Positions 1-63,947 of a stretch of DNA of 64,000 bases are shown piece by piece (positions within the stretch are counted from its first letter, which is position 1; every line of letters starts with the position of its first letter). A model generated the notes under the pieces. The model was not told the origin of the DNA. It saw nothing but the letters and a program-made list of their open reading frames with translations, and made no database searches. Origin of the DNA: Escherichia coli (lineage in GTDB: Bacteria; Pseudomonadota; Gammaproteobacteria; Enterobacterales; Enterobacteriaceae). Location of the stretch: assembly GCF_001677475.2 (NCBI RefSeq), contig NZ_CP015229.1. The stretch is one strand, 5' to 3'. Position numbers and translations under genes: made by a program.

Positions 1-2107
<2,107 letters not shown>

Positions 2108-2108
<1 letters not shown>

Positions 2109-3481
2109 TGACCACGCGCCTGACTCGCTGGCTAACCACGCTGGATAATTTTGAAGCCAAAATGGCGCAGTTGCCTGCGGTACGTCGCTACGGGCGATTA
2201 ACTCGCGCTACCGGGCTGGTGCTGGAAGCCACCGGATTACAATTGCCGCTCGGCGCAACCTGTGTCATTGAGCGCCAGAACGGCAGCGAAACGCACGAAG
2301 TAGAAAGCGAAGTAGTCGGCTTTAACGGTCAACGGCTGTTTTTAATGCCGCTGGAGGAAGTGGAAGGTGTCCTGCCCGGCGCGCGGGTTTATGCCAAAAA
2401 CATTTCGGCTGAAGGACTGCAAAGCGGCAAGCAGTTGCCGCTCGGTCCGGCGTTATTAGGTCGTGTTCTGGACGGCAGCGGTAAACCGCTCGATGGCCTC
2501 CCCTCCCCCGATACGACGGAAACCGGTGCGCTGATTACCCCGCCATTTAACCCGTTGCAACGTACACCGATTGAACATGTGCTGGACACCGGCGTGCGCC
2601 CAATCAATGCCTTGCTTACCGTCGGACGCGGGCAGCGTATGGGGCTGTTTGCCGGGTCCGGCGTTGGTAAAAGTGTGCTGCTGGGGATGATGGCCCGTTA
2701 CACCCGTGCCGATGTCATTGTCGTGGGTTTGATTGGTGAACGTGGGCGCGAAGTAAAAGATTTTATTGAGAATATCCTCGGTGCTGAAGGGCGTGCACGC
2801 TCAGTAGTGATTGCCGCTCCGGCGGATGTTTCTCCGCTCCTGCGAATGCAGGGTGCCGCCTATGCCACGCGCATTGCCGAAGATTTTCGCGATCGTGGTC
2901 AGCATGTGTTGCTGATTATGGACTCCCTCACCCGCTACGCGATGGCCCAGCGTGAGATTGCGCTGGCGATTGGCGAACCACCCGCCACTAAAGGTTATCC
3001 ACCGTCGGTGTTTGCCAAATTACCGGCACTGGTCGAGCGTGCCGGAAATGGCATTAGCGGCGGCGGATCGATTACCGCGTTTTATACCGTGCTCACCGAA
3101 GGCGATGACCAGCAGGACCCCATTGCTGACTCCGCACGGGCAATCCTCGACGGTCATATTGTGCTGTCTCGCCGACTGGCGGAAGCCGGACACTATCCGG
3201 CTATCGATATTGAAGCGTCGATCAGCCGCGCAATGACGGCGTTGATCAGTGAGCAACATTACGCGCGAGTGCGCACCTTCAAACAGCTGTTGTCGAGTTT
3301 TCAGCGTAACCGCGATCTGGTTAGCGTCGGCGCGTATGCCAAAGGCAGCGATCCGATGCTCGATAAAGCCATCGCCCTGTGGCCGCAGCTGGAGGGATAT
3401 TTGCAACAAGGCATTTTTGAACGTGCGGACTGGGAAGCGTCTCTCCAGGGGCTGGAGCGTATTTTCCCGACAGTGTCATAA
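2108..3481 (+). CDS. fliI: flagellum-specific ATP synthase FliI
   Basis: 457-aa ORF with Walker A GSGVGKS; operon position. Confidence 0.95.
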
Positions 3482-3499
3482 CCCAGGAGATAACGGCAG

Positions 3500-3943
3500 A
3501 TGGCAGAACATGGCGCGCTGGCGACCCTGAAAGATCTGGCAGAAAAAGAGGTAGAGGATGCCGCGCGCCTGCTGGGTGAAATGCGTCGCGGATGTCAGCA
3601 GGCGGAAGAACAGCTCAAAATGCTGATCGATTATCAGAATGAATATCGCAATAACCTCAACAGCGATATGAGTGCCGGGATGACCAGCAACCGCTGGATC
3701 AACTATCAGCAGTTTATCCAGACGCTGGAAAAAGCCATTACTCAGCATCGCCAGCAACTTAATCAGTGGACGCAGAAAGTTGACATTGCCCTGAACAGCT
3801 GGCGAGAAAAGAAACAACGTTTGCAGGCCTGGCAGACACTGCAGGAACGGCAATCCACGGCGGCACTGCTTGCAGAAAACCGCCTCGATCAGAAAAAGAT
3901 GGATGAGTTCGCCCAGCGCGCCGCCATGAGGAAACCTGAATGA
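3500..3943 (+). CDS. fliJ: flagellar export chaperone FliJ
   Basis: 147-aa ORF after fliI. Confidence 0.9.
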
Positions 3944-30048: not shown

Positions 30049-31548
30049 GTGACGCTCAATACTTCTCAGGTCAGTTACTATATGACTCAGCGTAAGAAAG
30101 GTATAACTCAGCATATCTCGGCCATGAAGGCTGGTATCTCAGTCCGTTCTGGTCGTCGGATCGAAAAAGGAGAGTGGGCAAAAAACAGTGTTCGGCACTG
30201 GCGCACACGCAAAGATCCTCTGGAAGCTGTGTGGGACAGCATGCTTGTTCCTCTGTTGAAAGAGAGGCCGGCTCTGACACCAACAACTCTACTGGAGATG
30301 CTACAGGATAAATATCCCGGCCAGTACCCCAACAGCCTTCGAAGAACAATGCAACGGCGGGTTCGCGAATGGAAACTACAGTATGGTACAGAGCAGGAGG
30401 TCATGTTCCGCCAGCAACATCAGCCCGGCCTGCGAGGCCTGTCGGACTTTACTGAACTGAAAGGTGTAGTTGTCACCATCGCCGGTAAGTTGTTGGCGCA
30501 TAAGTTGTATCACTTCCGTCTGGAATGGAGCCACTGGAGCTGGATGCGGGTTGTTCTGGGTGGTGAGAGCTTCTCTGCTCTGGCTGAAGGCCTGCAGGAA
30601 GCCCTCGGACAACTGGGCGGAGTGCCGGTAGAACATAAAACGGACAGCCTGAGGGCAGCATGGAAACAACAGGGCGAAGATGGACGCCGCGAGCTGACTG
30701 AGCGTTATGCTACTCTCTGTCAGCACTACGGAATGCAGGGCGTACACAATAATGCCGGTCGGGGCCACGAAAATGGCTCGGTTGAAAGTGCCCACGGACA
30801 TCTGAAAAGGCGTATCTGTCAGGCGCTGATACTGCGGGGCAGTAACGACTTCAGCACCATAGAAGAATATCAGGCCTTCATCACTCAGCAGGTTATGCGG
30901 CACAACCGTAACAATCAGGATCTGGTCAAGGAAGAACGTCTTCATCTGAAACCGCTGCCGCTTCGTCGCAGTGCTGACTATGATGAGCTGACTGTGAGGG
31001 TTAGTCGCAGCAGTACCATCAATGTGAAGCACGTCGTCTACAGCGTACCTTCCCGGCTTGTAGGTCAACTGTTACGGGTCAGGTTATGGGACGATCGTCT
31101 GAGCTGTTACGTTGGCAGCAGCGAGGTCATGAGCTGCCCTCGCGTCAGACCAGAAAAAGGGAAGACGCGGGCCCGTCGTATCGACTTCCGACATGTGATC
31201 GACAGTCTGGCAAAAAAGCCCGGTGCGTTCTGCCATGCAACGCTGAGAAATGACATCCTGCCGGACGATGAATGGCGGAGGCTGTGGCGTCGCTTATGTA
31301 ATCATCTGGAGCCCGATATGGCAGGAAGGCTGATGGTACATGCCCTGAAACTGGCTGCAGGATACGACGATATCTCAGTCGTGGCAAAAGGTATGGAGCA
31401 GATGCTGAATACCCCGGGAAACGTGGATCTGCACCGGCTGATGCGCTTCCTGGGTATAAAAGAAAAGGCGTTGCCGGTAGTCAATGTGATACAGCATAAC
31501 CTGAGCAGTTATGAGCAACTACTGCGTGGCAAGGGAGGTTCGCAGTGA
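30049..31548 (+). CDS. istA: IS21-family transposase IstA
   Basis: 499-aa ORF, N-terminal HTH, overlaps istB. Confidence 0.8.
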   Translation: MTLNTSQVSYYMTQRKKGITQHISAMKAGISVRSGRRIEKGEWAKNSVRHWRTRKDPLEAVWDSMLVPLLKERPALTPTTLLEMLQDKYPGQYPNSLRRTMQRRVREWKLQYGTEQEVMFRQQHQPGLRGLSDFTELKGVVVTIAGKLLAHKLYHFRLEWSHWSWMRVVLGGESFSALAEGLQEALGQLGGVPVEHKTDSLRAAWKQQGEDGRRELTERYATLCQHYGMQGVHNNAGRGHENGSVESAHGHLKRRICQALILRGSNDFSTIEEYQAFITQQVMRHNRNNQDLVKEERLHLKPLPLRRSADYDELTVRVSRSSTINVKHVVYSVPSRLVGQLLRVRLWDDRLSCYVGSSEVMSCPRVRPEKGKTRARRIDFRHVIDSLAKKPGAFCHATLRNDILPDDEWRRLWRRLCNHLEPDMAGRLMVHALKLAAGYDDISVVAKGMEQMLNTPGNVDLHRLMRFLGIKEKALPVVNVIQHNLSSYEQLLRGKGGSQ

Positions 31549-32300
31549 GCAATATCCATCACCTTGAACATAGCCTGCGTAAACTACGCCTGACACGAGT
31601 TGGAGCTGAATGGCACGCTCTGGAAAAACGAGCGCTGGCAGAAGGCTGGACACCATCGCGCTATCTTCTGACGCTATGCAATGAAGAACTCCTGTGGCGC
31701 GAGAGTGAAAAACTGCGTCGTTATAAAAAGGAGGCCCGGTTGCCAGTTGCCAAAACGCTGAGCGAATACGACTTCAGTCAGGTGCCGGAACTGAATGGAG
31801 CTCAGTTCCGGCAACTCTGTGAAACGACAGACTGGGTTGATGCAGGAGAAAACGTTCTGCTGTTCGGAGCCAGCGGGTTGGGGAAAAGCCATCTGGCGGC
31901 AGCGATCGTGGATGGCGTAGTAGGTCAGGGCTACCGGGCCCGGTTCTACAGCGCAGGAGAGCTGTTGCAGGAACTACGTAAAGCCAGAGCTCAGTTGAAA
32001 CTGAATGAGCTGCTACTGAAACTGGATCGCTACCGGGTGATAGTGGTGGATGATCTTGGCTATGTCAAACGCGATAGTGCCGAAACGGGTGTGCTGTTCG
32101 AGTTAATAGCGCATCGCTATGAACGTGGGAGCCTGGTGATAACCAGTAACCATCCGTTCAGCATGTGGGGCAGCATCTTCGTGGATGAGACTATGGCGGT
32201 GGCTGCGGCAGACAGGCTGATCCATCACGGATATATGTTCGAACTGAAAGGGGAAAGCTACAGGAAAAAGACAGCGAAGGCAGTAACAAGCGCGACTTGA
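31545..32300 (+). CDS. istB: IS21-family helper ATPase IstB
   Basis: 251-aa ORF with Walker A GASGLGKSHL and Walker B VVDDLG. Confidence 0.9.
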   Translation: MSNIHHLEHSLRKLRLTRVGAEWHALEKRALAEGWTPSRYLLTLCNEELLWRESEKLRRYKKEARLPVAKTLSEYDFSQVPELNGAQFRQLCETTDWVDAGENVLLFGASGLGKSHLAAAIVDGVVGQGYRARFYSAGELLQELRKARAQLKLNELLLKLDRYRVIVVDDLGYVKRDSAETGVLFELIAHRYERGSLVITSNHPFSMWGSIFVDETMAVAAADRLIHHGYMFELKGESYRKKTAKAVTSAT

Positions 32301-32450: not shown

Positions 32451-32481
32451 CAAAACCCCGGATGATCACCGGGGTTAATTT
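32451..32481. terminator. bidirectional hairpin terminator downstream of tfa
   Basis: CCCCGGATGATCACCGGGG hairpin flanked by A-run and T-run. Confidence 0.55.
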
Positions 32482-33068
32482 TATCGAGCGTGATTGCCGC
32501 TAATCGCCATCTCTCTGATTGAGCGTAAATCATCCAGGCTGCTCAGTTCCTCTTTCATCTCCCGCTGACGTTCGTGGATTTTAAAGCCCTCCGCCACCAT
32601 GGCCACCATCATGGCATCGTTCAGCGCAATAAGTTTCTCCCTGGTCAGTACGACGTTATTATTATCCGCATCAGTCCAGAAAAATCCCTCCGGAAGCAGT
32701 CCGGCCTGTGCTGTTGCAACCACGGGGGCAAGGCGTGACTGCGAGGTTTTTCCGCCATCAAAACGACGGCCATCAAACGTGAAAATAAACTCAACGTTTT
32801 CCTGACTGTCGCGCCATGCCTCAATTTCCCGCCTTTTGGCATCCTTTGCCGCTGCAATAAGTTCCGGCGTGACGGTGAACGGGGCGATTTCGCCCCATTT
32901 CCCGCTTTGCAGCTCCTGCCAGACATGCTGGCCTGTCGGGGCCATATCATCCTGTATGGCGGTATACAGGACGAACTCCGTTTCACCTTCAAATAACACC
33001 TCGCAGTCAACCGCACCATTTTCAAGATAATGCGCGTTTCTGATGCCTTTCACCGCTCTGATTTTCAT
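32481..33068 (-). CDS. tfa: tail fiber assembly protein Tfa
   Basis: 195-aa ORF directly downstream of side tail fiber gene. Confidence 0.8.
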   Translation of the reverse strand: MKIRAVKGIRNAHYLENGAVDCEVLFEGETEFVLYTAIQDDMAPTGQHVWQELQSGKWGEIAPFTVTPELIAAAKDAKRREIEAWRDSQENVEFIFTFDGRRFDGGKTSQSRLAPVVATAQAGLLPEGFFWTDADNNNVVLTREKLIALNDAMMVAMVAEGFKIHERQREMKEELSSLDDLRSIREMAISGNHAR

Positions 33069-33082
33069 GTCTTATTTCCTTA

Positions 33083-35179
33083 TTACTCAATGCGTACAAA
33101 AAGACCGATATAGCCACGCGTTGTATCGTGACTAATGCGGGTCCCCGAAAGCGCCGTGTAACGACCGGGGAAGTTGTATTCACCAGCACCGCCAATCACA
33201 ACCTGCGGTGAGGATGCGTATGTCCCTGTATCGCTAACCCGTGCACTCATAGCCAGAGGGCCAAGACGGGAACCCGGCACAATATCACCGAGCCCCAGAG
33301 ACGCATCTGCACCAAAACTCTCCCCCTGATATGCCGCCATAATCGGCACACCAACGGCCGGGTATTTATAATATGAGCCTGAGCCCGCCATCCTGGACAG
33401 CAGGTACGCCAGTGAATCTCCGTCGTATACAACTACCCGCGATGACATGTTCCAGCTGTTATCGCTGTCGTTGTACCGGTACTGCATATAGTGAATACAG
33501 TGTTCACCCTGATAATACTGGTTGTAGCACATCAGGGTTTTAAATTTGCGGACTGTGTCGGATTCACTGTTGGCGTACGGTGACCACATCACATCAATAA
33601 TGCCGTTAAATTGCGTGGTACCGGTAAGCAGTTGCGAGGAGTCTGTAATACTGACCGCATACCGCCCCGGCGTGACTTTCTTCAACCACTCAACGAAATC
33701 AGACAGCCCCTCAAACGCCAGAGCGTCAGTGCTGGTGAATGCCTGTCCAAACCCATACATCCCGGACAGGGCCAGCCTGCCCGGTGTGCGGTCACGGATA
33801 TCACTCTGGGGTTCCATCGTCGCAGCCGCGTTCAGCTCAAGCTCCGTGCGCATGGCTTCAGCCGTGTCATGCGCCAGTAATGCGCGGCCCTTCTCTGACA
33901 GCAGAGACAGTGAGGCATTCCCGTCTGTATTGAAGTACAGAAGATTATCTGCCCGTTGCGTCAGTGCGCTGATTGCCGTTAAGACGTCATTAAGCGGTTG
34001 TTTGCCTGCCAGCGCGTTTGTGATTGTCGTCGCAAAGTTCGGGTCATTGCCCAGCGCCGCTGCCAGCTCGTTCAGGGTGTCCAGAACTTCCGGCGATGAG
34101 CCAACCAGCGCAGCAAGCAGTTTGCGCACAAACGCTGCGTTCGCTGCTTCCAGACCGGCGGCATCATCCGGTGGGGTTGGGGTGGTTGGGGTGCCGGTGA
34201 AGGCCGGACTGTCCAGTGGCGCTTTTGTTTTCGCCTCGTCCATGACGTCTTTGACAGCCTTTGGCGTGGCAGCCAGTTCCTCGCTGTCGTTGTCCGTATC
34301 ACTACAGAGTTGCACCAGACCTTTTTCTGTCGTGGAGGCATTTGTTGCATTCAGGTCATCAACTATCTGCTGCGCCTCATCCCTGTACTGTTTCGCTTCC
34401 TGCGCATTGTCTGCACCTGCATCCTGGCTGGCTTTAGCCTGTCGGGCGTATTCGGCGGCACTGTTTTTGTGCCCCAGCGCCGCATTTGCCGACAGTTCTG
34501 AACTGGTCGCTGCTGATGATGCGGCATTATGATAAAGGCGGGCGCGTTCGGCGGCATCGACTGATTCGTCCCGCGCTGTGCCTGATGACTGTGCGCTGTT
34601 TTCTGCCTCACCCGCAAAACGTTCCGCATCATCACGGGCCGTTGCGGTTGTCGTCACATCCTGTGCCGTCTGCTGTGCGTTTCCGGCTGCAGCTTCGGCG
34701 CTCTGCTGTGTCTGATTTTTTAGCTCTTCTGCCTCATCCTTACTAACCGCCGCAGATGTTGCTGCATTGATTGCATCATCAGCAGCTGTTTCTGCTCTCT
34801 CCCTGTCACTGACCACCTGCTCAGACAAGCGAACAACGGTATTTACCATTTCCTCAAAACGCTTCATTACCTCAGGGCGTAAATCACCCTCCTTTGGTGC
34901 ATCCAGAAAAGCATTCAGCGTATCCGGCTCATCTGTCGGTGCAACATAAATTTCCCCCGCCTTTACAGGAGGATGCCCTGAGCGGGACAAAAATACATCA
35001 TAAAATCCCGGCTCAGCATTAATAGTATACCCGCCATCACTTCCCGTAAGACAGGTTGCCACAATATTAACCACAACTGTCGGACTGGTTCTTCTGGCTC
35101 GCAATTCAATCGCACAGTTTACGACAGGCTCACCCGCTCCGTCCTTCAGGACACCTGAAATCTTTACTGCCATATTCAC
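33083..35179 (-). CDS. stf: side tail fiber protein Stf
   Basis: 698 aa; N-terminus MAVKISGVLKDG... matches conserved lambda Stf N-terminal domain; Ala/Ser-rich shaft. Confidence 0.85.
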   Translation of the reverse strand: MNMAVKISGVLKDGAGEPVVNCAIELRARRTSPTVVVNIVATCLTGSDGGYTINAEPGFYDVFLSRSGHPPVKAGEIYVAPTDEPDTLNAFLDAPKEGDLRPEVMKRFEEMVNTVVRLSEQVVSDRERAETAADDAINAATSAAVSKDEAEELKNQTQQSAEAAAGNAQQTAQDVTTTATARDDAERFAGEAENSAQSSGTARDESVDAAERARLYHNAASSAATSSELSANAALGHKNSAAEYARQAKASQDAGADNAQEAKQYRDEAQQIVDDLNATNASTTEKGLVQLCSDTDNDSEELAATPKAVKDVMDEAKTKAPLDSPAFTGTPTTPTPPDDAAGLEAANAAFVRKLLAALVGSSPEVLDTLNELAAALGNDPNFATTITNALAGKQPLNDVLTAISALTQRADNLLYFNTDGNASLSLLSEKGRALLAHDTAEAMRTELELNAAATMEPQSDIRDRTPGRLALSGMYGFGQAFTSTDALAFEGLSDFVEWLKKVTPGRYAVSITDSSQLLTGTTQFNGIIDVMWSPYANSESDTVRKFKTLMCYNQYYQGEHCIHYMQYRYNDSDNSWNMSSRVVVYDGDSLAYLLSRMAGSGSYYKYPAVGVPIMAAYQGESFGADASLGLGDIVPGSRLGPLAMSARVSDTGTYASSPQVVIGGAGEYNFPGRYTALSGTRISHDTTRGYIGLFVRIE

Positions 35180-35238: not shown

Positions 35239-35838
35239 TCAGAACTTATAACCGACACCCACGATGAAACCGTCAGTGCGCCAGTCGCCACTGCCGGAGC
35301 CTTCATAAGCAATATCAATAGCCACGGATTCGGTCGGGTTAAACTGCACGCCAGCTCCCCACGCCAGAGACGTGTTGCTGTGGCGACCGTCATCACTTCC
35401 GGTCAGCACATCGTGCGTTTTCCCCTTATTGTCAGTTACGCGGAGATAATCCCCGGAGAAAGTCGACACACGGCTGTAAGCCACACCCGCCATCGCATAC
35501 GCGCTGAACCATTCATTCACGCGCACAGACGGCCCCGCCATTACGCTGAACCAGCGGTTACGAACGGAATCTTCATGCCAGCGGGTATCGCTGTAACGGG
35601 TCAGCTGGCGATTCTTGTCTCCTGCATAGCTGAATGACGTCACCATACCCAGTGTGTCCGTAAACTCATAACGGTATTTCACGTTAATCCCGTTCAGATC
35701 ATCGCTGCCGGGAACGTTCGTCGAGACATGAAGATACCCCGCGCTCAGCGTGGACTGATGTTCAGACGCCCATGCAGGCGCACCGGATAAGGCCAGACAA
35801 ATGGCTGCGGACAAAATGGCGGCATAAAGTTTACGCAT
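35239..35838 (-). CDS. lom: Lom/Ail-family outer membrane protein
   Basis: 199-aa ORF with signal peptide and C-terminal GVGYKF; lambda position between J and stf. Confidence 0.85.
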   Translation of the reverse strand: MRKLYAAILSAAICLALSGAPAWASEHQSTLSAGYLHVSTNVPGSDDLNGINVKYRYEFTDTLGMVTSFSYAGDKNRQLTRYSDTRWHEDSVRNRWFSVMAGPSVRVNEWFSAYAMAGVAYSRVSTFSGDYLRVTDNKGKTHDVLTGSDDGRHSNTSLAWGAGVQFNPTESVAIDIAYEGSGSGDWRTDGFIVGVGYKF

Positions 35839-47292: not shown

Positions 47293-47574
47293 TTATTCCT
47301 GTTCGACAAAAATCCGGGGATTACCGTTGTACGTGTCATAACGGGTCACCACCAGTGAGCGACCGTCAAACACAACCACATCATCGCGGGCCGGCCGGTA
47401 CTGCGCTGAAAACACCACCAGTGACAACTGACTGCCGGAAAGCGCCCCCATATCCGCAGACTCATACTCCGGTATCACGTCATACACTACGCCGTTAATC
47501 TCCGCCGTTTTCCCCATCATGCGTACGGTCGCCAGGTCCATCCGGCTGCACATTCGCGCAAACAGATCAGGCAT
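47293..47574 (-). CDS. head-tail joining protein (FII-like)
   Basis: ORF 47293-47643; start placed at MPDLFARM to avoid overlap; weak FII-like N-terminus. Confidence 0.6.
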   Translation of the reverse strand: MPDLFARMCSRMDLATVRMMGKTAEINGVVYDVIPEYESADMGALSGSQLSLVVFSAQYRPARDDVVVFDGRSLVVTRYDTYNGNPRIFVEQE

Positions 47575-47893
47575 TGATTTTAACCGCCACCGTGGTGGTG
47601 CCTGACGGCGCATGCTCCCATGCCATTCCCGCCGCCACTGCACCGTCTGCGGCAGGCTGCACAGTCCCGTCCTTCAGATAAACCGCCACACCGGCCTGAA
47701 TATCGTCGGCAGACTGTTTGGGCAGCAGGAACACGCCTTCGGCGAACCCGTCACCAGTCTCCCCGGCAGGAATATCGGTAATGGTCACTGCCACCATGCT
47801 GCCAACCACCACAGCGGCACCGCTCAGAATGGTCTGATCCCCGGCATTCACCAGCTCAATGGTGGTGCCGTCCTGTACAAAATTTTTAGCCAT
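47567..47893 (-). CDS. DUF2190-like head protein (possible head decoration/connector)
   Basis: ORF 47567-47938; start placed at MAKNFVQDG after RBS; position between capsid and FII. Confidence 0.55.
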   Translation of the reverse strand: MAKNFVQDGTTIELVNAGDQTILSGAAVVVGSMVAVTITDIPAGETGDGFAEGVFLLPKQSADDIQAGVAVYLKDGTVQPAADGAVAAGMAWEHAPSGTTTVAVKINA

Positions 47894-47979
47894 AATGCTG
47901 TCTCTCCGGACAGCCCCCGGGGGGCTGTTTTCAGGCATAAAAAAAGCCCTTTCGGGCAGTGATTGTGATAACGCGGTTA

Positions 47980-49959
47980 TCAGGCCACCGACGAACGCAC
48001 CAGCCCGCGCCAGTCAAGTGGTGCCACACCGGCATCAATACGGATTTTTGTGGCGATACCGTCAGTGGTGAAACCTTCCTGCTGGTCAATGTAGGGGGTG
48101 TCCACACCATCGAGCCAGGCCACTTCAATGGTGTCGGTGCCCTGTGCCGCAGCCAGGTACCAGGTTTTCGGATCTGCCGCATCAAGACGCGCTTCCGCAA
48201 TTACTTCGGCAAAGTTCTGGATCGGGTTAATGACACCGGCGTTTGCATCCGCCCCTTTCACACTGGCCGATTTGATGGTCTGGTTCGCCACCGTCTCCAG
48301 TGACACCGGCACCAGCATAAAGGCCGGACGGATATTCAGGGCGCGATCGCCTTCTTTCTGCAGGCGCATCATCTGACGGGCCGCATCCAGCCCGGAAACG
48401 GAGATCCCGCCGGTGGCTATATTTTTGTGATCGGTATGGAACAGGGCCTTACCGTCTGACAGTTTCGGGTTATCCGTCAGCACCTTGTAAACCAGGTCAC
48501 CAATCGTTGCCTTCGCCGCACGCCCCATCTTCATCGGCACGTCCACCAGCATATTCAGATCATCATTGATAATGGCCTGGCGGGTGATGGAGAAAATCTC
48601 CCCGTAGGTGGCCAGAGCAATGGTCTCCTTGCGATCTGAGGTGGTGATGTATTTATACTCCGCCCCCTCACGAACCTGACGCAGAGAACCAAAACCGCCC
48701 ATCCCCACGCGATACGCTGTTTTGAAGTCTGACAGGCGTCCCTTACGGGTCCACTTCTGGAAGGTTTCTTCTGATTCCTCCCAGCCCTGGATCAGCCCCT
48801 TGTTCGACACATCCAGCAGAATATTGCCAAAATCAGAGGTGCTGTGCGTCAGCGCCAGCCCGACCATCTGCATGGGGTTATAACTGGCCACCCCAATACC
48901 ACGCTCGGTCAGTGACATGCGAGCCCATTCACGCAGGGTCATCCCGTTATAGACATTATCCTTCTCGACATTTTCATATCCGGCACGGGCCAGCATCGCC
49001 TGGCGGATCCCGTCTCCCACAAAATTGCCGTTTCCGGCATAAATATGGGCCGGTGTGTTTTTGTTGGTCGGCGAGGACTCCTTGCCCATTTCATTCAGAA
49101 GGCGCTCGCGGGCCATTTCCAGCGAACAGTCAGGATCGGCCACACACTGCGCCTGAAGCGCCTGATAGCGCCCGCCAAACATGGCAAACAGATCGTTAAT
49201 GCCTGACATGCGGGCTTTCTGCTCAGCCATAACGCGGGCGCGAATGGTCGCCTCATCAGACACTGCCGGTACCGGTGATGGTTCTGTTACCGCCGGTGCA
49301 GGGATTGTCACTGTGGTATCACGCGGGGCACTGTTGTGTGGCTGCGTGATCATATTTCGGATGGATTCCGGCATCTTTTTAAATTCCTCTGTACGTGTTG
49401 ACTGAATACATGCCATTGCCTTAACGGCTGGCGTCACCTGGTCAGCAAATCCGTGTGCCAGACACTCGGCACCGGACATCCAGGTCTCATCCGCCAGCAT
49501 GGCGGCAATTTCATCGGTAGTTTTTCCGGTTTTCTGCGCATATACCGGCACCATAACCGACTCAAGTTTGTCCAGACGTTCGGCATAAGTGCGCATTTTC
49601 TCCGCATCACCACCGCTGATCCCCCAGGGTTTATGGATCATCATGAAGGCATTTTCCGGCATAATGACCGTGTCACCGGCCATCGCAATCAGGGATGCCA
49701 TCGAGGCGGCAACGCCATCCACATACACGGTAATGGCCGCACCGTGATTTTTCAGGGCATTAAAAATGGCGATGCCTTCAAAGACATCGCCACCCGGTGA
49801 GTTGATGTGGAGATTAATGTGGGTGATATCACCCAGGGCATTCATATCGCTGACAAACTGCTTCGCGGTGACGCCCCAGAAACCAATCTCGTCATAAATA
49901 TAAATATCCGCCTCACCCTGACCCCCCGCCTGCATCCTGAACCAGGATTTATTCTTCAT
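47980..49959 (-). CDS. prohead protease (ClpP/S49-like) fused to major capsid protein
   Basis: single ORF (47980-50196); start placed at MKNKSWFRMQAGG next to portal stop; protease-like N-terminal domain, capsid-like C-terminal domain. Confidence 0.75.
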   Translation of the reverse strand: MKNKSWFRMQAGGQGEADIYIYDEIGFWGVTAKQFVSDMNALGDITHINLHINSPGGDVFEGIAIFNALKNHGAAITVYVDGVAASMASLIAMAGDTVIMPENAFMMIHKPWGISGGDAEKMRTYAERLDKLESVMVPVYAQKTGKTTDEIAAMLADETWMSGAECLAHGFADQVTPAVKAMACIQSTRTEEFKKMPESIRNMITQPHNSAPRDTTVTIPAPAVTEPSPVPAVSDEATIRARVMAEQKARMSGINDLFAMFGGRYQALQAQCVADPDCSLEMARERLLNEMGKESSPTNKNTPAHIYAGNGNFVGDGIRQAMLARAGYENVEKDNVYNGMTLREWARMSLTERGIGVASYNPMQMVGLALTHSTSDFGNILLDVSNKGLIQGWEESEETFQKWTRKGRLSDFKTAYRVGMGGFGSLRQVREGAEYKYITTSDRKETIALATYGEIFSITRQAIINDDLNMLVDVPMKMGRAAKATIGDLVYKVLTDNPKLSDGKALFHTDHKNIATGGISVSGLDAARQMMRLQKEGDRALNIRPAFMLVPVSLETVANQTIKSASVKGADANAGVINPIQNFAEVIAEARLDAADPKTWYLAAAQGTDTIEVAWLDGVDTPYIDQQEGFTTDGIATKIRIDAGVAPLDWRGLVRSSVA

Positions 49960-51451
49960 GCTGGCTGTCGGTGGCCTGCTGACGCTGTTGTTCAGTTCCG
50001 GCACTGTTGCCTCCTTTGTCGTTGGCGGGGTCAGTATCAAAGACCAGCCCCAGCCTGCGGTTTTCCTCAGTTTCCGCCTTACGGCGACGTTTGACCTCAT
50101 CCGGGTTGCGCCCGCCTGCGCGGATCCAGTCGGATTCCGTCGCGGCACCACCCCGGATCTGTATCCGCCAGGCTTCAGCCTCCTTAACCGGGTCAATCCA
50201 CGGCATCACCGGACCGGAATACGTCGCGTTATATAGCGTCTTCATCTCCACATCCGCCGGAATTTTCAGCAGACCTGCCGCAACCACCATATTCAGCCAT
50301 GTCCGGTACACCGGGCGGGTTACCGCACCAATAAAACAGTCCTGCAGGATCAGGTAACCATCCGTGGACTCGACCAGCTCCTGCCGCTGGGCGCTGTAGG
50401 TGCCGTTATAGTTACGCGCCGCACTGGAAAAGCTCAGACGACTGCCAGCTGCCACTGCACGCAACTGGCCGTTGCGGAAAGTTTCAAGGTTGGGATTGGG
50501 ACGATCGGATTTGACCATGCCGATATCCTCGCCCTTGCGCAAATCGTCATAAATAATTCCCGGGGTGATATGGACTTCCCGCTCGGTTTCTTTGCTCCCC
50601 GGATCTTCATAGTCCTGTCCGTCACCTTTACGGATATACAGTCCCAGCGCCGCAGCAATACGCGCCGCTGTCAGTTCCGCATCCTCATACTCCTTAAGGG
50701 CACTGATCCGCATCAGCACCCCCGATAACATGGATGAGCCTCGCGTCTGATGCAGACGACGAGTGAACTTCAGGTGGATCATTTTTCCGGCGGCGATTTC
50801 TTTCGTATCACTCTGCCGACCACTGACCGGATAATTTTTATAAACCAGATATTTTTTCGGTCTGCCCCACTCATCAAGAAAAACCCCCTGATTCAGCCCG
50901 GCGGATTCATCACTGCGCATGGGAACAAAATCCGGCTCCATCGCTTCAAGCCAGAATGGCACTCCCGCCGTCCGTTCCAGACCGTTTCCCGCACCACTGA
51001 CCATCTGCGCAAACACTTCACCATCCCGCAGCCAGGTCCGCAGCAGTAAACGCTCAAGCACGGGACGGGTATACTGCCCTGTCACATCCGGACTCACGGA
51101 CCATTCAGCCCACAACCGGCGGATATCCGCAGCCAGCTCTGCCGCCATTTCCCCGTTTTTTCGTAATGGCTGAGGCTCCACAGTAATTCCTCTGGCACCA
51201 ATCACCCGCTCTTCAAGCTTGTCAAACACACCAATCACCAGGTCATGATTGATATCCAGAAAACGGGCCTGCTCCCGCAGGGAAACCGCGCCATATTTAC
51301 TGAGTTGATCAGCAGATCGATTTTCACGCCGGGCTTTATGTGTCCGGGTCGGTTTCACCGCCTCATAGGCCATGATTAACGCCCTTGAACGCAGTCTGGC
51401 CGCTTTCCAGCCTGGAGAGAACACGCCTATCACATCATCAATAATTGCCAT
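49949..51451 (-). CDS. portal protein (lambda B-like)
   Basis: 500-aa ORF between W-like gene and protease-capsid gene. Confidence 0.85.
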   Translation of the reverse strand: MAIIDDVIGVFSPGWKAARLRSRALIMAYEAVKPTRTHKARRENRSADQLSKYGAVSLREQARFLDINHDLVIGVFDKLEERVIGARGITVEPQPLRKNGEMAAELAADIRRLWAEWSVSPDVTGQYTRPVLERLLLRTWLRDGEVFAQMVSGAGNGLERTAGVPFWLEAMEPDFVPMRSDESAGLNQGVFLDEWGRPKKYLVYKNYPVSGRQSDTKEIAAGKMIHLKFTRRLHQTRGSSMLSGVLMRISALKEYEDAELTAARIAAALGLYIRKGDGQDYEDPGSKETEREVHITPGIIYDDLRKGEDIGMVKSDRPNPNLETFRNGQLRAVAAGSRLSFSSAARNYNGTYSAQRQELVESTDGYLILQDCFIGAVTRPVYRTWLNMVVAAGLLKIPADVEMKTLYNATYSGPVMPWIDPVKEAEAWRIQIRGGAATESDWIRAGGRNPDEVKRRRKAETEENRRLGLVFDTDPANDKGGNSAGTEQQRQQATDSQHEE

Positions 51452-51687
51452 TAAAACCTCGCCAGTTTAAATCCCGGTTTTCCCCGCCTGCGGCTCACCA
51501 TCGCGGCAAGCCTGCGTTCCCACTCCTGACGTCCGGCGCGGATCTGAGAAAGGCTTTCCAGCGTCAGTTGCTGTCCGTTGAAGGTGACAGACTTCCCCTC
51601 CAGTACGGCCATTTCCGCTTCACGGTACCGCTGTATCATTTCTCTGGCTTCTTCTGTGCTCACAACCAGCCTCCTGATGTTATCCAT
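51451..51687 (-). CDS. head-tail joining protein W-like
   Basis: 78-aa ORF between terminase large subunit and portal; C-terminal RRRGKPGF resembles lambda W. Confidence 0.65.
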   Translation of the reverse strand: MDNIRRLVVSTEEAREMIQRYREAEMAVLEGKSVTFNGQQLTLESLSQIRAGRQEWERRLAAMVSRRRGKPGFKLARF

Positions 51688-61521: not shown

Positions 61522-62346
61522 TCAATTATGTTTTAAGAATGGATAGGTAAAGAATAACAAGTGACACAGATTCAGACCAAAATGGAAAAGGGTTGCCACC
61601 CACAAGCGCCCACTCCACATCCATGACAATCCATACACAACACCAGATAACGTGGCAAATAATACAAGTAAAGCACCACCTGAATAGTGATAAAAACCAA
61701 ACAACAAAGACGCCACAATTAACGCAACCAATGGAGACGTCACTTCTGATAGCCGTGATTGAATATACCCTCTAAATAATGACTCCTCTGCCAGAGACAC
61801 AAAAAACAAATTAGCCAATATAAACTCTGGCAACCACTCTGGAAAATGAATCTCTGGCTTTAACCCACCAAAAAAAACAGCCAAAAACAGGATAAGAGGA
61901 ACAGAGAGCAACAGAGCCGCCCATTTCCACAAAGACACTTCTGATTTCACTTCTTTTTTAAAAAAAGAAGCTGTACACAGGACTAACAAAAATGGCACCA
62001 GCGCTTTATCAAAATTAAAATACATTGTATAGGGAGTGCTTTGAGGTCCGACAGTGACAGACTTTAGCACTACAGGATTGTGAAACCCTGGCCATAAATG
62101 AAAAGATAATGCTATGGCTGATAAAACTATGCCAGCTTCATATATGGATTTAGCCCAGGCGTTATATTTCCAGTTGAACTTCAAAATAATAAAAAAAACG
62201 ATTGTAGCAACAAAAAACAACACCGGCCAATCAATAATATCATTAAGCACAGCCAGGACAACAGACACCGTCAACAATGAAAAAGCCACTACCTTATGCC
62301 AACTGAGAGTTGACAGTGACAGTGCTAACACAATCCACATAAACAC
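61522..62346 (-). CDS. CPBP-family (CAAX protease / Abi-domain) intramembrane metalloprotease
   Basis: 274-aa polytopic ORF with EESLFRGY and FGFYHY motifs; visibly AT-rich. Confidence 0.7.
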   Translation of the reverse strand: MFMWIVLALSLSTLSWHKVVAFSLLTVSVVLAVLNDIIDWPVLFFVATIVFFIILKFNWKYNAWAKSIYEAGIVLSAIALSFHLWPGFHNPVVLKSVTVGPQSTPYTMYFNFDKALVPFLLVLCTASFFKKEVKSEVSLWKWAALLLSVPLILFLAVFFGGLKPEIHFPEWLPEFILANLFFVSLAEESLFRGYIQSRLSEVTSPLVALIVASLLFGFYHYSGGALLVLFATLSGVVYGLSWMWSGRLWVATLFHFGLNLCHLLFFTYPFLKHN

Positions 62347-63239: not shown

Positions 63240-63947
63240 TTACCCAAGCACGCCGGTTGCAAAGGCGTGATCAAGAAAACGAAAAATTAAATCAATCTGG
63301 GAACCATGGTTTTCTTCGAACGCCAGCAGATCCGCATGAAGTTCGTTGTGATGCTCCCGGCACAGCGGTAGTGTAAAAATATCGTGGGCCTTTGTTCCCA
63401 TTCCGCCCTGACCATGACCAATCAGGTGATGGGGATCGTCGGCTGGCTTACCACAACACGCACACGGCTGTGTCTTTACCCAGCGCGTGTATTTCTCATT
63501 TACCCAGCGGCGACGTTTAGGTCGCCTCATGAACGATTCAGGAGACTCCGGATCAACGGCGATACTGACAACCGTTTTTTTCTGTGGTGGATTTTGTTGC
63601 TGGTGGACGTGAAGTGGCAGCGCAATATTTTTTGTGCGCTGCTTCAGTATGCTGGTGGCTGTCGGTTCTCCCGGTATGATGTCGCTCTCGCGGTACACCG
63701 AGCAAATTTTCTCTGCACGTAACCCCAGAGAACGACGTAATACTGTCTCCGGTAGCGCGTCCGCCACCTGATTGCAGACCGCCCACCAGGATAATTCAGC
63801 CAAAGATAATTCACGCTCCTGCGTACCGCTTATTGCGTGACCGATGACGTCAATCATCCATGCTGACAGGTTTTGATGAGCAAGTTGCTCGAGTGATTCG
63901 GATGTCTGGTCACGCAGCTGGTTGTCGCAGTGCCAGCACAACACCAT
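63240..63947 (-). CDS. nin-region protein with C-terminal Cys/His-rich (HNH/zinc-finger-like) motif
   Basis: 235-aa ORF; motif CACCGKP...DPHHLIGHG...PLCREHHNELH; family assignment uncertain. Confidence 0.55.
   Translation of the reverse strand: MVLCWHCDNQLRDQTSESLEQLAHQNLSAWMIDVIGHAISGTQERELSLAELSWWAVCNQVADALPETVLRRSLGLRAEKICSVYRESDIIPGEPTATSILKQRTKNIALPLHVHQQQNPPQKKTVVSIAVDPESPESFMRRPKRRRWVNEKYTRWVKTQPCACCGKPADDPHHLIGHGQGGMGTKAHDIFTLPLCREHHNELHADLLAFEENHGSQIDLIFRFLDHAFATGVLG

What the first reader, a model, noticed from the sequence alone, without database searches (positions are those of the whole stretch)
47980..49959. Single-polypeptide prohead protease and major capsid protein
Where lambda has separate C, Nu3, D and E genes, this prophage has one 659-aa ORF with a ClpP/S49-like N-terminal domain and a capsid-like C-terminal domain, followed by a DUF2190-like small head protein. 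This fusion arrangement is known in some E. coli prophages but is worth confirming.
Basis: partly seen in the sequence, partly recalled or inferred. Interest (0 to 1): 0.3.

Follow-up and report, generated by a model that had tools for sequence, protein, structure and literature searches.

The report
Phage protease-capsid fusion gene, already known
This is an intact copy of a well-known phage head gene that encodes the head-maturation protease, a scaffold-like segment and the major capsid protein as one polypeptide, as in Salmonella phage Gifsy-2, so it is ordinary.

Summary

- **Domains:** Pfam finds a ClpP-like protease domain (residues 30-176) and a phage capsid domain (369-656).
- **Catalytic residues:** Ser86 and His109 are invariant in 96 diverse relatives.
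- **Family:** it scores 993 bits (cutoff 475) on NCBIfam NF045540, [quoted passage not shown]. It is 61% identical over its full length to the Gifsy-2 "tripartite capsid gene" (Effantin 2010). A 2.8-kb query spanning it matches 2,069 of 5,426 complete E. coli genomes.
- **Downstream gene:** the small gene (47567-47893) is a capsid cement/decoration protein (Pfam PF09956, formerly DUF2190).

- The likelier start is GTG 50004, giving 674 aa. It has a strong Shine-Dalgarno, and the position holds a start codon in all 9 lineages checked.
- The protease is S14 ClpP-like, not S49.

A nested in-frame start at Met196 is a weakly supported possibility.

Verdict: real, correctly interpreted, already known, low interest.

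The parts
47980..50004 (-). Fusion gene for the ClpP-like prohead protease, scaffold-like segment and major capsid protein. Preferred start is GTG 50004 (674 aa). The PGAP/first-reader start is ATG 49959 (659 aa). Stop is TGA 47982-47980.
   Evidence: Continuous ORF. NF045540 993 bits vs cutoff 475. phrog_133 matches the full length. Start-codon comparison across 9 lineages.
49345..49959 (-). ClpP-fold serine protease domain (residues 1-205, 659-aa numbering). Catalytic Ser86 is at 49704-49702, His109 at 49635-49633, and the acidic residue Glu158 at 49488-49486.
49255..49344 (-). Poorly conserved Pro/Ala/Thr-rich linker (residues 206-235).
   Evidence: AlphaFold pLDDT below 50 for residues 208-233. 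Lowest column conservation in the alignment, 0.16-0.28.
48850..49254 (-). Mostly helical middle segment (residues 236-370, 14.9 kDa). It is the inferred internal scaffold, analogous to the HK97 delta domain and lambda Nu3.
   Evidence: AlphaFold helices at 236-259, 266-274, 280-293, 313-326, 342-351 and 362-371. It lies N-terminal to the point where solved Mu gpT-type capsid chains begin to align, about residue 371. The scaffold role is inferred, not tested.
47983..48849 (-). HK97-fold major capsid protein domain (residues 371-659, 31.5 kDa).
47567..47893 (-). Capsid cement/decoration protein gene (108 aa, 10.7 kDa; DUF2190 = Pfam Phage_cement_2). It is the functional counterpart of lambda gpD.
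   Evidence: PF09956 69.4 bits vs cutoff 24, and phrog_122 'head decoration'. AlphaFold pLDDT 91.4, all-beta. Foldseek best match is chain C of the phiCD508 capsid entries, TM 0.82; partial matches to lambda gpD 1c5e and phage 21 SHP 1td0 at probability 0.97. PGAP start in N96.
49949..51451 (-). Lambda-family portal protein gene immediately upstream. Its 3' end overlaps the start of the fusion gene.
   Evidence: Pfam Phage_portal_2 E 6.2e-81. ORF coordinates.
47910..47957 (-). Conserved two-hairpin intergenic element between the fusion and decoration genes. Hairpin 1 is GCCCgaaaGGGC (47957-47946) followed by T7 (47945-47939). Hairpin 2 is ACAGCCCC-ccg-GGGGCTGT (47928-47910).
   Evidence: Sequence. 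Same layout in 7 other lineages, with compensatory changes in hairpin 2. Hairpin 1 is annotated as a rho-independent terminator in the mEp460 and mEp213 records.

Best explanation
The gene is a Gifsy-2-type 'tripartite capsid gene' of a lambdoid prophage. One polypeptide of 674 aa (659 aa by the PGAP start) carries three parts: an N-terminal ClpP-fold serine protease, a flexible linker plus helical scaffold-like segment, and a C-terminal HK97-fold major capsid protein.

Proposed mechanism:
1. The capsid domains co-assemble on the portal into a T=7 procapsid, with the protease and scaffold parts tethered inside.
2. The concentrated protease domains (Ser86/His109/Glu158) cut away the N-terminal roughly 370 residues.
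3. The fragments leave, the roughly 31-kDa capsid domain shell expands during DNA packaging, and trimers of the downstream 108-aa cement protein bind and stabilise it.

Shown here: the ORF, the three-part architecture, the conserved catalytic residues, family membership, and the gene order (terminase, adaptor, portal, fusion, decoration, then lambda-like tail genes).

Inferred from the Gifsy-2, HK97 and lambda literature: the assembly steps, self-cleavage, the cleavage position, T=7 geometry and trimeric decoration.
For: - Continuous ORF.
- Pfam CLP_protease plus Phage_capsid_4.
- Full-length match to phrog_133.
- NF045540 'ClpP-like prohead protease/major capsid protein fusion protein' at 993 bits vs cutoff 475.
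- PGAP gives the same name in E. coli N96 at 99.9% identity, and 2,069 of 5,426 complete E. coli genomes match the 2.8-kb query spanning the gene.
- 61.4% identity over residues 3-658 to the Gifsy-2 gene, with the same neighbours: portal upstream; decoration, Z, U, V and G/T downstream.
- PMC8538268 lists Gifsy-2 among phages with a trimeric cement protein at the 3-fold axes.
- PMC8814770 lists Gifsy-2 as T=7.
- Ser86 and His109 are invariant and residue 158 is acidic in 92/96 relatives, aligned with ClpP sequences; the assignment to ClpP's Ser/His/Asp catalytic positions is from my own knowledge of ClpP.
- The decoration protein model matches chains of solved capsid entries.
- More than 100 distinct 50%-identity clusters keep the full-length fusion.
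Against: - Nothing here contradicts this explanation.
- No experiment on this prophage exists.
- The Effantin 2010 paper could not be read, so the processing details rest on citing papers and my recollection of its abstract.
- The cleavage site or sites are unknown.
- This prophage's ability to form particles is untested. An IS21-family element sits next to its tail-fibre end, and the related N96 prophage carries IS66 insertions.
Confidence: 0.93

Rival explanations
1. The gene makes two nested in-frame products. One is the full-length protease-scaffold-capsid chain. The other, starting internally at Met196 (ATG 49374-49372; 464 aa, 50.6 kDa), is a scaffold-capsid chain. This would let the phage set a protease-to-capsid ratio below 1:1, as lambda C/Nu3, Mu I/Z and herpesvirus UL26/UL26.5 do (those parallels are from my own knowledge).
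For: - ATG at codon 196 is invariant in all 9 enterobacterial/Pseudomonas lineages, while residues 194-195 and 198-199 vary.
- A GAGGA(A/G) motif lies 9-11 nt upstream in all of them. The first Glu codon is GAG in 8/8.
- The 9-codon window 188-196 has the second-highest synonymous-codon identity in the gene: 0.74 vs a mean of 0.48, above the 99th percentile.
- The site lies at the end of the protease domain, just before the disordered linker.
Against: - In the broad family, position 196 is V/A/I/P/T in most members and Met in only 6/96. It sits in a conserved protein motif, F-x-x-h-P, so Met may simply be one tolerated hydrophobic residue fixed in this clade.
- The SD-like motif is short (GAGG), sits at a long spacing, and also encodes Glu-Glu.
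- The synonymous-constraint test used only 8 related sequences and 5 scored columns.
- The two apparent standalone scaffold-capsid genes that begin at this Met are artefacts.
Confidence: 0.12
2. The single ORF is an artefact or a decayed pseudogene. On this view there are really two genes (protease, and scaffold-capsid) joined by a sequencing error or mutation, or the ORF is a non-functional relic of a defective prophage.
For: - Some database relatives appear as separate protease and capsid genes, e.g. L008 with a 201-aa Clp protease gene followed by a 443-aa capsid gene.
- Related prophages carry IS insertions; the VT1-Sakai copy is split by IS629.
Against: - The separate-gene cases are themselves artefacts. 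L008 is a frameshifted fusion in a draft assembly, because the alternative frame still encodes the homologous junction residues. L007 is cut by a contig end.
- The fused ORF is intact in the window, in 1,955 E. coli genomes whose match covers at least 80% of the query, in cultured phages (mEp460, mEp213, cdtI, F10, Gifsy-2), and in more than 100 divergent clusters.
- The catalytic residues are invariant.
Confidence: 0.02
3. The N-terminal domain is a housekeeping-type ATP-dependent ClpP, or an S49 lambda-gpC-type protease, rather than a dedicated phage head-maturation protease.
Against: - All bona fide ClpP models score far below their cutoffs, e.g. TIGR00493 64.5 vs 308.6 bits. SppA_dom scores 27.6 vs 155.
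- The phage-specific model NF045542, 'head maturation protease, ClpP-related', passes at 220.8 vs 120.
- The domain is covalently joined to a capsid protein and sits between the portal and decoration genes.
Confidence: 0.02

Closest known systems
Salmonella phage Gifsy-2 'tripartite capsid gene' (STM1034.3n.Gifsy2 in NC_010393; Effantin et al. 2010, Virology 402:355)
   Same: 61.4% identity over essentially the full length. Same three-part order: ClpP-like protease, middle segment, capsid protein. Same neighbours: lambda-family portal upstream; DUF2190 decoration gene, FII-like gene and Z/U/V/G-T tail genes downstream. Same conserved two-hairpin spacer after the gene. The start codon is at the homologous position if the window's GTG 50004 is used.
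   Different: Different host (E. coli). About 39% of residues differ. The Gifsy-2 N-terminal leader is about 10 residues longer, and the linker sequence is unrelated. No structural or biochemical data exist for the window's copy.
NCBIfam NF045540 (scaf_prot_MCP1) / PHROG 133: ClpP-like prohead protease/major capsid protein fusion proteins of E. coli lambdoid phages and prophages (CP-1639, long-tailed Stx phages, mEp460, mEp213, mEp043, cdtI, LLS)
   Same: Scores 993 bits vs cutoff 475 over profile positions 2-651 of 652. 96-99% identical to the CP-1639 and Stx2a-phage copies, and about 76% to the mEp460 group. PGAP gives this exact name to the 99.9%-identical N96 gene.
   Different: Nothing of substance. 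It is one allele among thousands.
Phage lambda head genes C, Nu3, D and E
   Same: Same position in a lambda-like late operon, after the gpA-type terminase, the W-like adaptor and the lambda-family portal, and before Z-U-V-G-T-H. Same logic of protease plus scaffold plus HK97-fold capsid protein plus a cement protein; that logic, and the lambda gene details under 'different', are from my own knowledge.
   Different: Lambda uses separate genes. Its protease is S49-type rather than ClpP-like (SppA model not met here). Its capsid protein gpE belongs to a different Pfam family. D precedes E in lambda, whereas here the decoration gene follows. The decoration protein is PF09956, not the gpD family, and shows only partial fold similarity to gpD (59 aligned columns).
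Phage HK97 gp4 protease and gp5 (delta domain fused to capsid protein)
   Same: The scaffold function is covalently attached to the N-terminus of an HK97-fold capsid protein and removed by the phage protease. This is inferred here; the helical segment preceding the capsid domain is, and the HK97 details are from my own knowledge.
   Different: The HK97 protease is a separate gene of a different (herpesvirus-like) protease family. HK97 has no decoration protein and stabilises the shell by covalent cross-links instead.
Mu-type head module (gpI protease / nested gpZ scaffold / gpT capsid protein) and NF045541 (scaf_prot_MCP2) fusions
   Same: The capsid domain is related to Mu gpT: Pfam Mu-like_gpT E 1e-10 and solved gpT-domain capsids at E 1.3e-11. 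Residues 200-656 match NF045541 strongly (415 bits).
   Different: The NF045541 cutoff of 525 bits is not reached, and only the scaffold and capsid part aligns, so the protease part is of another type. In Mu the capsid protein is a separate gene (own knowledge).

Membership tests
NCBIfam NF045540, ClpP-like prohead protease/major capsid protein fusion protein (Gifsy-2 type) | Whole-protein score above the curated cutoff, with end-to-end coverage of the profile | tested here: met
   993.2 bits vs cutoff 475; residues 17-657 match profile positions 2-651 of 652.
NCBIfam NF045540, ClpP-like prohead protease/major capsid protein fusion protein (Gifsy-2 type) | Protease and capsid domains in one uninterrupted reading frame | tested here: met
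   No stop between 50196 and 47983 in this frame. Same CDS in RefSeq N96.
NCBIfam NF045540, ClpP-like prohead protease/major capsid protein fusion protein (Gifsy-2 type) | N-terminal ClpP-fold domain with catalytic Ser and His (plus an acidic residue) | tested here: met
NCBIfam NF045540, ClpP-like prohead protease/major capsid protein fusion protein (Gifsy-2 type) | C-terminal HK97-fold major capsid protein domain | tested here: met
NCBIfam NF045540, ClpP-like prohead protease/major capsid protein fusion protein (Gifsy-2 type) | Head-module synteny: portal upstream, small cement/decoration gene downstream | tested here: met
   Portal at 49949-51451 and PF09956 gene at 47567-47893. Same order in Gifsy-2, F10, mEp460, Fels-1, mEp213 and cdtI.
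NCBIfam NF045540, ClpP-like prohead protease/major capsid protein fusion protein (Gifsy-2 type) | Self-processing that releases a capsid protein of about 31 kDa, which forms a T=7 decorated shell | not testable with these tools
   Known only for Gifsy-2, through papers citing Effantin 2010. Testing it needs particle purification and mass spectrometry.
Bona fide ATP-dependent ClpP (TIGR00493 and related equivalogs) | Score above the equivalog cutoff | tested here: not met
   TIGR00493 64.5 vs 308.6 bits. All other ClpP models are also far below their cutoffs. It shares the fold but is not a ClpP orthologue.
Lambda gpC / SppA-type (S49) prohead protease | Match to S49/SppA models above the cutoff | tested here: not met
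NCBIfam NF045541 (scaf_prot_MCP2), the second prohead protease/capsid fusion family | Score above the curated cutoff | tested here: not met
   415.3 vs 525 bits; only residues 200-656 align.
Pfam PF09956 Phage_cement_2 (DUF2190) capsid cement proteins (the downstream gene) | Score above the gathering cutoff, and a fold like chains of solved capsid structures | tested here: met
   69.4 vs 24 bits. phrog_122 'head decoration' E 2.7e-36. AlphaFold pLDDT 91.4. TM 0.82 to chain C of the phiCD508 capsid entries.

The most novel reading that the evidence does not exclude
In this enterobacterial/Pseudomonas clade the fused gene may be read twice in the same frame. One reading runs from the 5' start and gives protease-scaffold-capsid. 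The other starts at the invariant Met196 (ATG 49374) and gives a protease-less scaffold-capsid chain of 50.6 kDa, which would make up the bulk of the shell. This would be a three-domain version of the nested protease/scaffold gene pairs of lambda (C/Nu3), Mu (I/Z) and herpesviruses (UL26/UL26.5). The support is an invariant ATG, a conserved GAGGA motif and unusually high synonymous-site conservation just upstream. Against it, most of the wider family has no start codon at this position.
Probability: 0.12. Interest if true: 0.35.

Novelty: already known. Interest (0 to 1): 0.08.

Why it matters
It matters little beyond correct annotation.

- The architecture was described for Gifsy-2 in 2010, has its own NCBIfam and PHROG families, and a 2.8-kb query spanning the gene finds a match in over a third of complete E. 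coli genomes.
- The one practical point is that such genes are often labelled only 'Clp protease' or 'head maturation protease'. Automated pipelines can then miss the major capsid protein; PMC8814770 could not retrieve an HK97-fold capsid protein for Gifsy-2.
- The annotated start codon is inconsistent across records: relatives are annotated at lengths from 652 to 706 aa.
- If the nested internal start were real, it would explain how a covalent protease-capsid fusion avoids a 1:1 protease-to-capsid ratio. That idea is speculative.

Tried and rejected
1. Natural split genes. Short relatives P0162 (443 aa) and P0210 (468 aa) begin exactly at the Met196 position and looked like standalone scaffold-capsid genes. 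The DNA shows that L008 is a frameshifted fusion gene in a draft assembly, since the other frame still encodes the homologous '...SNRIKDFHN-MPPS'. L007 is cut by the contig end. I rejected both as evidence of a natural split.

2. Other internal starts. Scanning the whole ORF found no in-frame start between residues 180 and 385 with a strong Shine-Dalgarno.

3. The Effantin 2010 paper is not held. Its content was taken only from citing papers and from my recollection.

5. Plain sequence searches of the PDB found nothing meaningful for the decoration protein and only weak hits for the capsid part. One call failed on a frame error.

6. Rfam has no family for the intergenic hairpins or anything else in 47400-50300. 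Folding of the spacer alone gave only z = -1.98.

7. I first assumed the whole window was collinear with E. coli N96. It is not outside the head/tail module, so N96-derived coordinates for the flanks were discarded.
Full report
**Observation**

The minus strand carries one uninterrupted reading frame that ends with TGA at 47982-47980. The longest ORF reaches 50196 (738 codons). RefSeq/PGAP annotates the same 659-aa CDS in a 99.9%-identical prophage of E. coli N96 and names it [quoted passage not shown].

**Domain content**

- Pfam finds CLP_protease at residues 30-176 (E 1.5e-36) and Phage_capsid_4 at 369-656 (E 1.8e-55), with a weaker Mu-like_gpT match.
- PHROG 133 (668 profile positions) matches from end to end.
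- NCBIfam has a dedicated model, NF045540 (scaf_prot_MCP1). It scores 993 bits against a cutoff of 475.
- The phage-specific protease-domain model NF045542, "head maturation protease, ClpP-related", passes at 220.8 vs 120 bits.
- All genuine ClpP equivalogs and the SppA (S49) domain model fall far below their cutoffs. The protease therefore has the ClpP fold but is neither a ClpP orthologue nor a lambda-gpC-type S49 enzyme.

**Catalytic residues**

Alignment with solved ClpP chains places Ser86 (in AASMA) and His109 (in IHKP) at ClpP's catalytic Ser and His, and Glu158 at the position of ClpP's Asp; which ClpP residues are catalytic is from my own knowledge. In a 96-sequence alignment of full-length relatives that are 34-96% identical to the query, Ser86 and His109 are invariant, and residue 158 is Glu or Asp in 92 of 96.

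**Structure**

AlphaFold2 on that alignment gives mean pLDDT 89.2. The model has four regions:
- a compact domain to about residue 205;
- a disordered, poorly conserved Pro/Ala/Thr-rich linker (residues 208-233, pLDDT below 50);
- a run of helices between 236 and about 371;
- a large alpha/beta domain with a long helix at 468-496.

**Relatives and literature**

- The protein is 96-99% identical to copies in phage CP-1639, several long-tailed Stx2 phages and VT1-Sakai. In VT1-Sakai the gene is split by IS629.
- It is about 76% identical to the copies in mEp460, mEp213, mEp043, cdtI and LLS, about 62% to Fels-1 and a Providencia phage, 61.4% to Gifsy-2, and 57% to Pseudomonas phage F10 and its relatives. 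All of these matches cover the full length.
- Gifsy-2 is the studied prototype. [quoted passage not shown] 2010. [quoted passage not shown] PMC8814770 lists it as T=7.
- The primary paper is not held. My recollection of its abstract is a ClpP-like protease, a central domain of about 200 residues with a possible scaffolding role, and a C-terminal capsid protein, with capsids modelled using HK97 gp5 and lambda gpD. This agrees with what is found here.
- A Paracoccus virome study describes the same fusion in 34% of its siphovirus-type prophages (PMC6536676).
- In the 50%-clustered protein library, more than 100 distinct clusters align over the full length at 35-59% identity.
- In complete E. coli genomes, 2,069 of 5,426 match the 2.8-kb query spanning the gene, 1,955 of them over at least 80% of it.

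**Context**

The order on the minus strand is:
- gpA-type large terminase (51660-53783);
- a small head-tail adaptor (51451-51687);
- lambda-family portal (49949-51451);
- the fusion gene;
- the decoration gene (47567-47893);
- a Gifsy-2-family/FII-like gene;
- lambda-like Z, U and V, ORFs in the positions of lambda G and T, and the tape-measure ORF (the G, T and tape-measure identities come from the names PGAP gives in the near-identical N96 module).

This matches Gifsy-2 gene for gene. Lambda's C, Nu3 and E are replaced by one gene. The gpD counterpart remains separate and lies after the capsid gene rather than before it.

**The small head protein**

PF09956 is now named Phage_cement_2 (formerly DUF2190). 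It scores 69.4 bits vs a cutoff of 24, and phrog_122 is "head decoration". The PGAP start, ATG 47893, is preceded by GGAGAG and gives 108 aa, and the family profiles begin there. Its AlphaFold model (pLDDT 91.4, all beta) best matches chain C of the phiCD508 capsid structures (TM 0.82). Other matches are chains of the T1, Sf11, TW1 and Pam3 capsid entries, and partial matches to lambda gpD and phage 21 SHP (59 columns, probability 0.97).

**Start codon**

An in-frame GTG at 50004 lies 5 nt after AAGGAGG, whereas the ATG at 49959 has no Shine-Dalgarno.
- The annotated ATG starts of Gifsy-2, F10 and Fels-1 fall at the homologous place.
- mEp460, cdtI, mEp213 and Kp4865-4 have the same (A/G)AGGAGG-N5-GTG.
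- Providencia phage PSTCR8lys has an ATG there with only a marginal Shine-Dalgarno (AAAGGTAG).
- The 49959 ATG exists only in the window's own lineage.
- Most gene calls in the family begin "MP.." 19 residues before the conserved SW motif, and large clusters are 674 aa long.

I therefore prefer 47980-50004 (674 aa, 73.3 kDa), which overlaps the portal gene by 56 nt. One caveat is that the Shine-Dalgarno lies inside portal coding sequence, so its conservation is not independent evidence.

**Possible nested start**

Met196 lies at the end of the protease domain.
- For: it is ATG in all nine lineages whose DNA I examined, while the flanking residues vary. A GAGGA(A/G) motif lies 9-11 nt upstream. 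The preceding nine codons have the second-highest synonymous-codon identity in the gene (0.74 vs a mean of 0.48).
- Against: in the broad family this position is V/A/I/P/T within a conserved F-x-x-h-P motif, and Met in only 6 of 96. The motif also encodes Glu-Glu. The two apparent standalone genes starting at this Met are artefacts.

I rate a nested scaffold-capsid product at about 12%.

**Mechanism**

By homology with Gifsy-2, and by analogy with HK97 and lambda, the likely pathway is:
1. The capsid domains assemble on the portal, with the protease and scaffold parts inside.
2. The protease removes roughly the first 370 residues.
3. The shell expands on DNA packaging.
4. Cement-protein trimers bind the shell.

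Only the parts list and the catalytic competence are shown here. The pathway itself is inferred.

**Verdict**

It is already known, named and very common. The refinements are the likely start codon, the protease class, and the middle scaffold-like segment.

Noticed in passing
window 47910-47957 (minus strand), between the fusion gene stop and the decoration gene start: A conserved two-hairpin spacer. Hairpin 1 is GCCCgaaaGGGC followed directly by T7, which looks like a terminator; the mEp460 and mEp213 records annotate it as one. After CCTGAAA comes a GC-rich second hairpin, whose sequence differs between lineages while pairing is kept (compensatory changes in 4 pairs). Then comes the decoration gene's Shine-Dalgarno. 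The same layout occurs in mEp460, mEp213, cdtI, Gifsy-2, Fels-1, PSTCR8lys and Kp4865-4. Rfam has no matching family. It may be a partial terminator or an mRNA 3'-end stabiliser inside the late operon.
   Followed up: partly
window 49372-49389 (minus strand), codons 191-196 of the fusion gene: An invariant in-frame ATG (Met196) preceded by a conserved GAGGA(A/G) motif, with unusually high synonymous-site conservation, located exactly at the protease/linker boundary. It could be a nested start for a protease-less scaffold-capsid product, although most distant family members have no start codon there.
   Followed up: partly
window 47293-47574 (minus strand): PGAP names the gene after the decoration gene 'DNA breaking-rejoining protein', and the matching Pfam family PF13856 ('Gifsy-2') is described as an 'ATP-binding sugar transporter'. 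By position it sits between the head genes and gpZ. It matches phrog_153 'minor tail protein' and weakly matches the lambda FII head-tail attachment family (E 0.009). It is more likely a head-tail joining protein, so both names look like misnomers.
   Followed up: no
window 30049-32300 (plus strand): An IS21-family element (a 499-aa ORF with a Mu-transposase C-terminal domain, plus an IstB ATPase) lies next to the prophage's tail-fibre end (DUF4376 gene 32481-33068, tail fibre 33083-35179, intact Lom 35239-35838). The closest complete genome, N96, instead has IS66 copies and a truncated lom here. The window is not collinear with any complete E. coli genome in the collection and looks like a mosaic prophage.
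   Followed up: partly
window 60068-60221 (minus strand): Two phage-borne tRNA genes, tRNA-Gly (TCC) and tRNA-Thr (TGT), lie in the prophage late-regulatory region, between the DUF968 (63240-63947) and Rce1-like/CPBP (61522-62346) genes on one side and the terminase genes on the other.
   Followed up: no
locus L014 (phage VT1-Sakai, AP000400.1), positions 625-3893: The orthologous fusion gene of the Stx1 prophage of E. coli O157:H7 Sakai is interrupted by IS629. It is annotated as two separate ORFs, 'scaffolding protein' and 'hypothetical protein', so that prophage should be unable to build its own heads.
   Followed up: no
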